Shown in pieces: positions 46,405 through 46,552 of a stretch of 64,000 nt of DNA. Source of the DNA: Octopus sinensis (taxonomy: Eukaryota); contig NC_043006.1 in assembly GCF_006345805.1 (NCBI RefSeq), forward strand, positions 21,700,001 to 21,764,000, in the 5' to 3' direction. The position numbers were made by a program. The stretch's first letter is position 1, and each line of letters opens with the position of its first letter.

Positions 46405-46438
<34 letters not shown>

Positions 46439-46552
46439 CTAGTTTCAGCTCAGAGCTGCGGCCATGCTGATGCACCGCCGTTGAAAAATATGGAACGCTT
46501 CACGAATTGCGTGTCATCCTTATACATACATATATATATATATATATGTATG

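What the first reader, a model, noticed from the sequence alone, without database searches (positions are those of the whole stretch)
46421..46521. U6 snRNA joined to a retroposon 3' tail: a U6/LINE-type chimera in an apparent invertebrate
Seen: on the minus strand, the last ~38 nt of U6 end in exactly five T, join directly to a 45-nt structured tail, then A18. The unit is inserted antisense into the (TA)n of a family A SINE. Established: mature metazoan U6 ends in about 5 U with a 2',3'-cyclic phosphate, and mammalian U6/L1 chimeras are attributed to RtcB-type RNA ligation or template switching before target-primed reverse transcription. Inference: the partner here is not L1 but the LINE whose 3' end family A SINEs share. 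This is either a one-off chimera or a 5'-truncated member of a U6-headed SINE family. I do not know of such a family being described in molluscs.
Basis: partly seen in the sequence, partly recalled or inferred. Interest (0 to 1): 0.88.

Follow-up and report, generated by a model that had tools for sequence, protein, structure and literature searches.

The report
Octopus U6 snRNA / retroposon-tail chimeric retrocopy
A dead, 101-base retrocopy in an octopus genome joins the end of the spliceosomal U6 RNA to the short structured tail of a LINE/SINE-type retroposon, a kind of chimera already known from vertebrates but which I did not find reported for a mollusc.

Summary
On the minus strand, 46521..46484 is the last 38 nt of U6. 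It scores 25.9 bits against Rfam U6 and runs to the last model position. E is 1.9e-4 for the 401-base stretch and 0.03 window-wide. It falls below the gathering score because about two thirds of U6 is missing.

It abuts a 45-nt tail (46483..46439) and then A18 (46438..46421).

The tail is a diverged homologue of the two-hairpin 3' module carried by 10 other SINE-type copies in the window:
- identity is 79% to the best copies;
- 0 of 5000 shuffles reach the alignment score;
- two pairs in hairpin 2 carry compensatory changes.

Seven of 7 sister SINE copies have only a microsatellite at this position, so the unit is an insertion. A GPCR exon in the window places it in Octopus.

Best reading: a sporadic chimeric retropseudogene made by a LINE machinery. 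U6 chimeras with L2, RTE and SINE partners are already described in vertebrates (PMC4476161), so this is a new member of a known kind.

Not testable here: copy number of the junction, the donor element, and a U6-headed SINE family. No eukaryotic genome collection was available.

The parts
46484..46521 (-). 5'-truncated U6 snRNA copy: the last 38 nt, ending in T5
   Evidence: Rfam U6 (RF00026) at 25.9 bits, aligned to the last model position, 105 of 105. E is 1.9e-4 locally and 0.03 window-wide. Sequence read.
46439..46483 (-). 45-nt retroposon 3' tail with two hairpins. It is a diverged member of the 3' module shared by the window's SINE families
   Evidence: 0 of 5000 shuffles reach the alignment score. 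RNAalifold predicts 12 pairs, 2 of them with both sides changed in the chimera. Model R1 scores it at 57 bits, though it was in the training set. Identity to the other 10 copies is 60-79%.
46421..46438 (-). Uninterrupted A18 tail
46403..46420 (.). (TA)9, the part of the host SINE's internal microsatellite on the 3' side of the insertion. Possible target-site duplication, undecidable
46522..46621 (.). TA-rich microsatellite of about 100 bp on the 5' side of the insertion, also part of the host SINE
46245..46402 (+). Host SINE, head and left part
   Evidence: BLASTN matches 8 other places in the window at 77-94% identity.
46622..46836 (+). Host SINE, right part. It has its own two-hairpin tail at 46767..46812 and a GTAAAAGA-type repeat tail

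Best explanation
This is a sporadic, non-functional chimeric retropseudogene. An octopus LINE reverse transcriptase primed at a nick in the (TA)n tract of an older SINE. It copied the A-rich end and the last 45 nt (the two-hairpin recognition module) of a LINE RNA, or of one of that LINE's SINE clients. It then continued onto the 3' end of U6 snRNA. That continuation happened in one of two ways: the enzyme switched template (possibly using 1-2 nt of U/A microhomology), or the two RNAs had already been ligated (RtcB-type, U6 2',3'-cyclic phosphate to a 5'-OH fragment). Reverse transcription stopped, or the cDNA was joined to the target, after 38 nt of U6. That gave a 5'-truncated copy.

Shown: the three parts, their order and orientation, the homology and conserved fold of the tail, and the insertion status.

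Inferred: target-primed reverse transcription, the identity of the donor, and the joining step. I lean slightly to template switching over ligation, about 55:45.
For: - The U6 part ends exactly at the end of the Rfam U6 model and abuts the tail with no spacer or poly(A) between them.
- The tail is homologous to the 3' module of 10 other retroposon copies in the window. Significance: 0 of 5000 shuffles reach the score. Both hairpins are kept, with two both-sides-changed pairs in hairpin 2.
- The unit ends in a pure A18.
- 7 of 7 sister SINE copies have no such unit in their internal microsatellite.
- The architecture of a 5'-truncated U6 plus a short LINE 3' piece is what PMC4476161 (section 10) reports for almost all platypus U6-L2 chimeras. 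That paper also reports U6 chimeras with SINEs (Mon-1, AnolisSINE2).
- RNA ligation of U6 to other RNAs by RtcB is documented for human cells (PMC6789731, passages).
- The U6 part has no upstream promoter context, only (TA)n. Per the passage read in PMC4494074, no internal promoter is reported for snRNA genes.
- Some SINE copies of this tail family also sit at (TA)n: one has it on both flanks and one on the 3' flank. That fits a shared target preference.
Against: - There is only one copy in 64 kb, and no genome was available to show that junctions vary between copies.
- The target-site duplication is undecidable because both flanks are (TA)n.
- No LINE carrying this tail was found in the window.
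- The SINE copies end in GTAAAAGA-type repeats, not poly(A), so the donor's tail type is unknown.
- The U6 score is below Rfam's gathering cut-off.
- Assembly across about 120 bp of (TA)n could not be checked.
Confidence: 0.74

Rival explanations
1. It is a 5'-truncated copy of a U6-headed SINE family. In that reading a master copy (U6 head, LINE-type tail) has been transcribed and retrotransposed repeatedly.
For: - 5' truncation is usual for LINE-mobilised copies.
- The tail keeps the full recognition module and an intact A18.
- An automated repeat annotation of O. vulgaris lists, among recently active SINEs, one 'U' family (19 insertions) and one 'U-L1' family (2 insertions, 353 bp together). 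This is in PMC13282606, Table 1, seen as a passage. Those labels are not discussed in its text.
- The C after the T5 may weaken Pol III termination (statement about yeast in PMC4758252, passage).
Against: - Only one copy occurs in the window, and the hairpin-2 variant occurs nowhere else in it.
- No internal promoter is reported for snRNA genes (PMC4494074 passage), so a U6 head would not carry its own promoter.
- An internal T5 is a Pol III terminator.
- The 'U'/'U-L1' families in PMC13282606 may be other snRNAs or gene arrays. Their sequences are in supplements I could not open.
Confidence: 0.13
2. The juxtaposition came from two separate events or from break repair. One version is a tail-only retrocopy and a U6 retrocopy landing side by side. 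Another is cDNA fragments captured at a double-strand break in the fragile (TA)n tract.
For: - Long (TA)n tracts are break-prone (general knowledge, not tested).
- No target-site duplication can be shown.
Against: - The join is exact: the native U6 3' end meets the start of the tail module, in the same orientation, with no filler and no second poly(A).
- That is the signature of RNA-level chimeras.
- Two independent hits at the same base are very unlikely.
Confidence: 0.07
3. It is an assembly artefact, or a chance resemblance to U6.
For: - The unit lies inside low-complexity (TA)n, where assemblies err.
- U6 E is only 0.03 in the window-wide, all-family search.
Against: - 34 of 39 consensus columns are identical, and the match ends precisely at the model's last position.
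- The tail homology is independently significant.
- An artefact would not produce a coherent U6-tail-A18 order.
Confidence: 0.04

Closest known systems
Platypus U6-L2 chimeras, and U6-RTE / U6-L2 chimeras of Anolis (Doucet et al. 2015, PMC4476161, section 10 read)
   Same: U6 3' end fused directly to the 3' end of a non-L1, stringent-type LINE. In platypus the U6 is almost always 5'-truncated, the LINE piece is short, and target-site duplications are small or absent.
   Different: The host here is a mollusc, not a vertebrate. The LINE clade is unknown. The tail ends in A18, not the L2 TGAA repeat. Only a single copy was seen.
U6-SINE chimeras (U6-Mon-1 in platypus, U6-AnolisSINE2 in anole; PMC4476161)
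   Same: The 3' partner may be a SINE RNA that carries the LINE's tail. In this window all 10 other carriers of the tail module look like SINE copies.
   Different: The donor here is unidentified. Its hairpin-2 variant matches none of the window's SINE copies.
Mammalian U6/L1 chimeric pseudogenes (PMC6789731; PMC4476161)
   Same: U6 joined at its oligo-U end to a 5'-truncated LINE 3' end with poly(A). The same two candidate mechanisms apply: RtcB ligation or template switching.
   Different: In mammals U6 is mostly full length and the L1 piece is variably long. L1 is a 'relaxed' poly(A)-recognising LINE. Here only a 45-nt structured module is present and U6 is truncated to 38 nt.
SINEU families of crocodilians (Kojima 2015, PMC4494074, passages read)
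   Same: An snRNA-derived 5' part sits on a LINE-dependent 3' part, there is an internal oligo-T, and the origin is attributed to template switching.
   Different: SINEU heads are U1/U2, not U6. SINEU are multi-copy families with subfamilies and master copies. Nothing of that kind could be shown here.
MINE chimeras of Magnaporthe (WEIRD RNA + MGL LINE; PMC2104539, passages read)
   Same: They show that LINE-mediated bipartite chimeras occur outside vertebrates.
   Different: The 5' partner there is not U6, and the host is a fungus.

Membership tests
U6/LINE-type chimeric retropseudogene | The 5' part is U6 snRNA sequence reaching its native oligo-U 3' end | tested here: met
   The Rfam U6 alignment runs to model position 105 of 105 and ends in T5. 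Up to 2 of the T may be tail-derived.
U6/LINE-type chimeric retropseudogene | Direct fusion, in the same orientation, to the 3' end of a LINE or of a SINE that shares its tail | tested here: inconclusive
   The fusion is direct and the tail is homologous to the 3' module of 10 retroposon copies. The donor element and any LINE carrying it were not found in the window.
U6/LINE-type chimeric retropseudogene | A-rich or LINE-specific 3' terminus | tested here: met
   A18 at 46438..46421.
U6/LINE-type chimeric retropseudogene | Target-site duplication flanking the whole chimera | tested here: inconclusive
   Both flanks are (TA)n, so any duplication is invisible.
U6/LINE-type chimeric retropseudogene | Independent chimeras with different junction points elsewhere in the genome | not testable with these tools
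snRNA-headed SINE family (SINEU-like) | Many copies sharing one junction, with subfamilies or master copies (criteria in PMC4494074) | not testable with these tools
   There is one copy in the 64-kb window. The genome was not searchable.
snRNA-headed SINE family (SINEU-like) | A complete head at the 5' end | tested here: not met
   Only 38 of 105 model positions of U6 are present. This could be 5' truncation of one copy, so it does not exclude a family.
Functional U6 snRNA gene | Full-length U6 reaching Rfam's gathering score | tested here: not met
   25.9 bits against a cut-off of 44, with the first 60 or so positions absent. The upstream flank is (TA)n.
Stringent-type LINE/SINE 3' recognition tail | A conserved stem-loop close to the 3' end, kept by compensatory change | tested here: met
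   There are two hairpins with 12 pairs. Two pairs keep pairing through changes on both sides in the chimera. Only one lineage supplies the covariation, so support is modest.
Stringent-type LINE/SINE 3' recognition tail | Recognition of the tail by the partner reverse transcriptase | not testable with these tools
   This needs a retrotransposition assay.
Stringent-type LINE/SINE 3' recognition tail | Match to a curated LINE 3' element in Rfam | tested here: not met
   No Rfam family other than U6 and microsatellite-driven hits matched 46300..46700 at E up to 10.

The most novel reading that the evidence does not exclude
The copy is a 5'-truncated member of a U6-headed SINE family that has amplified in octopus on the back of a stringent LINE tail. 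It would be the first SINE with a U6 (Pol III snRNA) head that I know of, and an invertebrate example of an snRNA-headed SINE. Possibly it corresponds to the undiscussed 'U' or 'U-L1' SINE entries in the 2026 O. vulgaris repeat annotation.
Probability: 0.12. Interest if true: 0.65.

Novelty: new member of a known kind. Interest (0 to 1): 0.36.

Why it matters
If the reading holds, U6 capture by LINE machineries extends from vertebrates to a lophotrochozoan. Until now it is documented for L1, L2 and RTE partners. The joining step, whether template switching or RtcB-type ligation of the U6 cyclic-phosphate end, would then be a general property of bilaterian cells and of stringent LINEs.

It also gives a natural minimal substrate. 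The 45-nt, two-hairpin module plus an A-tract was apparently enough for reverse transcription and integration. That marks the likely recognition element of the enzyme that has filled octopus genomes with SINEs.

As a single dead copy it has no likely effect on the host.

Tried and rejected
- The Rfam search at gathering thresholds found nothing. The U6 piece is visible only with E-value thresholds. All other sub-threshold hits were miRNA or viral models matching microsatellites.
- ARAGORN found no tRNA, so the SINE heads are not recognised as tRNA genes.
- I looked for a LINE in the window. The stop-to-stop frames of 120 aa or more are mostly microsatellite artefacts. Seven were scanned against Pfam, and only the GPCR exon matched. 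So the autonomous partner could not be named.
- I tested for a third hairpin just 5' of the junction point, as a possible pause site for template switching. RNAalifold on 10 extended SINE 3' ends gave no consistent support. The idea is dropped.
- A full-text search for a 24-nt stretch of the SINE tail found 0 papers.
- Searches for invertebrate or mollusc U6 chimeras found nothing on the subject. One search found 23 papers, of which 15 were listed. One search found 28 papers, of which 20 were listed. searched 'SINEU' as a whole word: 23 papers, 21 listed, with the only mollusc SINE paper citing it in passing. This is the basis for 'not found in print'. It is not proof of absence, and subscription papers and supplements were not searched.
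- Albertin 2015 was not held.
- The names of the old octopus SINE families (OK, OR1, OR2; Ohshima and Okada 1994) are partly recalled. Only the citation and OR2 were seen, in PMC4758252. I did not assign the host SINE to any of them.
Only one exon was searched, on its own.
- I took nothing in the window for human.

Full report
**What is there**

Read on the minus strand, the stretch 46521..46421 has three abutting parts:
- 38 nt that match the 3' end of U6 snRNA and end in five T (46521..46484);
- a 45-nt G+C-rich tail (46483..46439);
- an uninterrupted A18 (46438..46421).

TA-rich microsatellite lies on both sides, about 100 bp at 46522..46621 and (TA)9 at 46420..46403.

**Is the U6 part real?**

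The default Rfam search of the window lists nothing, because only about a third of U6 is present.

With E-value thresholds, RF00026 (U6) matches 46484..46527 (-) at 25.9 bits against a gathering score of 44. E is 1.9e-4 for the 401 bases searched. E is 0.03 for the whole window against all 4227 families. There it is the only snRNA hit among 145 listed matches, almost all the others being microsatellite-driven miRNA hits.

The alignment reaches the last model position, 105 of 105. 34 of 39 consensus columns are identical, with one single-base deletion.

I could not compare it with an octopus U6 gene. The two or three bases before 46521 are ambiguous between U6 and the TA/TG repeat.

**Is the tail a retroposon tail?**

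BLASTN of the tail against the window found the core of hairpin 1 in six other places. All of them are the 3' ends of copies of the SINE family that also hosts the insertion.

- A local alignment of the tail to one such 3' end scores 26, and 0 of 5000 shuffles of the tail reach that (mean 6.6, maximum 14).
- RNAalifold on the eight tails predicts two hairpins with 12 pairs. In hairpin 2 the chimera differs from the SINE copies on both sides of two pairs and still pairs.
- A covariance model built from these eight found three further, more diverged members not used to build it: 26494..26540, 45752..45797 and 19892..19938, all on the minus strand. Their E-values are 9e-12, 2e-7 and 0.04.

So the window holds 11 carriers of this module.

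The chimera's tail is 79% identical (38 of 48 aligned columns) to the four best family copies, 71% to the host SINE's own tail, and 60-72% to the diverged ones. Its hairpin-2 variant occurs nowhere else in the window.

The SINE copies continue into GTAAAAGA-type repeats, whereas the chimera continues into A18. Two SINE copies show A-runs at that place, so the tail type is not rigid.

**Is it an insertion?**

The host SINE lies on the plus strand, with its head from about 46245 and its tail module at 46767..46812. It has an internal (TA)n/(TG)n microsatellite.

The seven other copies that keep both conserved flanks of that microsatellite show nothing but simple repeat there, 23-91 bp between the BLAST matches. 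The host has 219 bp, which includes the 101-nt unit. The unit is therefore a later insertion, antisense to the SINE.

A target-site duplication cannot be read, because both flanks are (TA)n.

**Organism and context**

The frame 60657..61085 (+) is a rhodopsin-type GPCR exon (Pfam 7tm_1, E 1.9e-24). It is 98% identical to Octopus vulgaris 'cholecystokinin receptor type A-like' proteins. By tblastn, 97.7% of 128 residues match, at aa 123-250.

The window is thus from Octopus vulgaris or a close relative.

Residues 1-122 of that protein were not found in the window. So 46.4 kb is probably intronic or upstream, and the chimera is antisense to the gene. That is inference.

I searched this one exon alone and joined no spliced model.

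**Mechanism**

The precise, same-orientation join of the native U6 3' end to the start of a retroposon's terminal recognition module, followed by an A-tail, is the signature of an RNA-level chimera integrated by a LINE machinery.

For mammals two routes are proposed:
- template switching during target-primed reverse transcription (PMC4476161; PMC2104539);
- prior ligation of the U6 2',3'-cyclic phosphate end to a 5'-OH RNA by RtcB (PMC6789731, passages read).

This single copy cannot decide between them.

One detail bears on the question. Two of the three diverged tail-family members have TTCAA immediately before hairpin 1 and the third has TTTGA. The chimera reads T5-CAAC there. So one or two of the five T may come from the donor or mark a microhomology, which mildly favours template switching. 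It also means the T count says little about the mature U6 end.

The 5' truncation of U6 fits incomplete reverse transcription.

Some SINE copies with this tail also sit at (TA)n. One 5'-truncated copy has (TA)n on both flanks, and another has it on the 3' flank. That hints at a shared target preference. The numbers are small.

**LINE or SINE donor?**

All ten other carriers in the window look like SINE copies, and no reverse-transcriptase ORF adjoins any of them. SINEs make up 11.6% of the O. vulgaris assembly (PMC13282606, passage).

U6-SINE chimeras are known (PMC4476161). I therefore regard a SINE RNA and a LINE RNA as about equally likely donors.

**Family or one-off?**

I could not test this. 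No eukaryotic genome collection was available.

Against a self-propagating family:
- no internal promoter is reported for snRNA genes (PMC4494074, passage);
- the internal T5 is a Pol III terminator;
- the window has a single copy.

For keeping the option open:
- the C after the T-run may weaken termination (statement on yeast in PMC4758252);
- Table 1 of PMC13282606 lists one 'U' SINE family (19 insertions, 13,954 bp) and one 'U-L1' family (2 insertions, 353 bp) among recently active O. vulgaris elements.

These look like automatic class labels, since the methods name RepeatModeler2 within Earl Grey.

About 176 bp per 'U-L1' copy is close to a full U6 plus this tail and A-tract. It is equally compatible with another snRNA plus poly(A), so this is a lead only.

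**Comparison with what is known**

Section 10 of PMC4476161 (read in full) reports the following:
- 40 platypus U6 chimeras with L2 or its SINE Mon-1, almost all with a 5'-truncated U6 upstream of a short L2 piece and small target-site duplications;
- in Anolis, three chimeras each with L1, L2 and RTE elements, and six with AnolisSINE2;
- single uncertain cases in opossum (RTE, RTESINE1) and turkey (CR1).

It concludes that the process is general to non-LTR retrotransposons.

The octopus copy has the platypus-type architecture. What is new is the host phylum. My searches found no report of a U6/retroposon chimera in a mollusc or other invertebrate animal, within the limits of the held library.

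**Verdict**

The feature is real and correctly described. It is best explained as a sporadic U6/retroposon-tail chimeric retropseudogene, a new member of a known kind. Interest is moderate to low unless a genome-wide search shows a family.

Noticed in passing
window 60657..61085 (+): One exon of a rhodopsin-type GPCR. It is 97.7% identical to aa 123-250 of Octopus vulgaris 'cholecystokinin receptor type A-like'. The upstream coding part was not found in the window, so the preceding intron may exceed 60 kb.
   Followed up: partly
window 3502..4506 (+): A 334-aa stop-free frame containing a YRDD motif, possibly a decayed reverse transcriptase of another element. No Pfam match at E up to 0.01.
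   Followed up: partly
window 26480..27268 and 45752..46836: Two head-to-head pairs of SINE copies. One pair abuts within about 3 bp (heads at 26845 and 26848). The other has heads about 113 bp apart (46131 and 46245), and the second member of that pair is the host of the chimera.
   Followed up: no
window 30247..30624: A 5'-truncated SINE copy with (TA)n on both flanks. Another copy (19147..19439) has (TA)n on its 3' flank. This may reflect a TA-repeat target preference of the partner LINE.
   Followed up: partly
window 767..856: A near-perfect inverted repeat with arms of about 45 bp. It matches MIR8675 on both strands at 60-62 bits, below the gathering score of 90.8. It may be a MITE-like hairpin.
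   Followed up: no
window 57104..57121 (-): A second uninterrupted A18, preceded by A9GC. It may be the tail of another poly(A) retrocopy.
   Followed up: no
window 30471..31679: About 1.2 kb of TACA/TATG-type microsatellite. It gives long spurious open frames and many sub-threshold mir-297 hits.
   Followed up: no
window 41206..41305: A run of 100 N (assembly gap or mask), left untouched.
   Followed up: no
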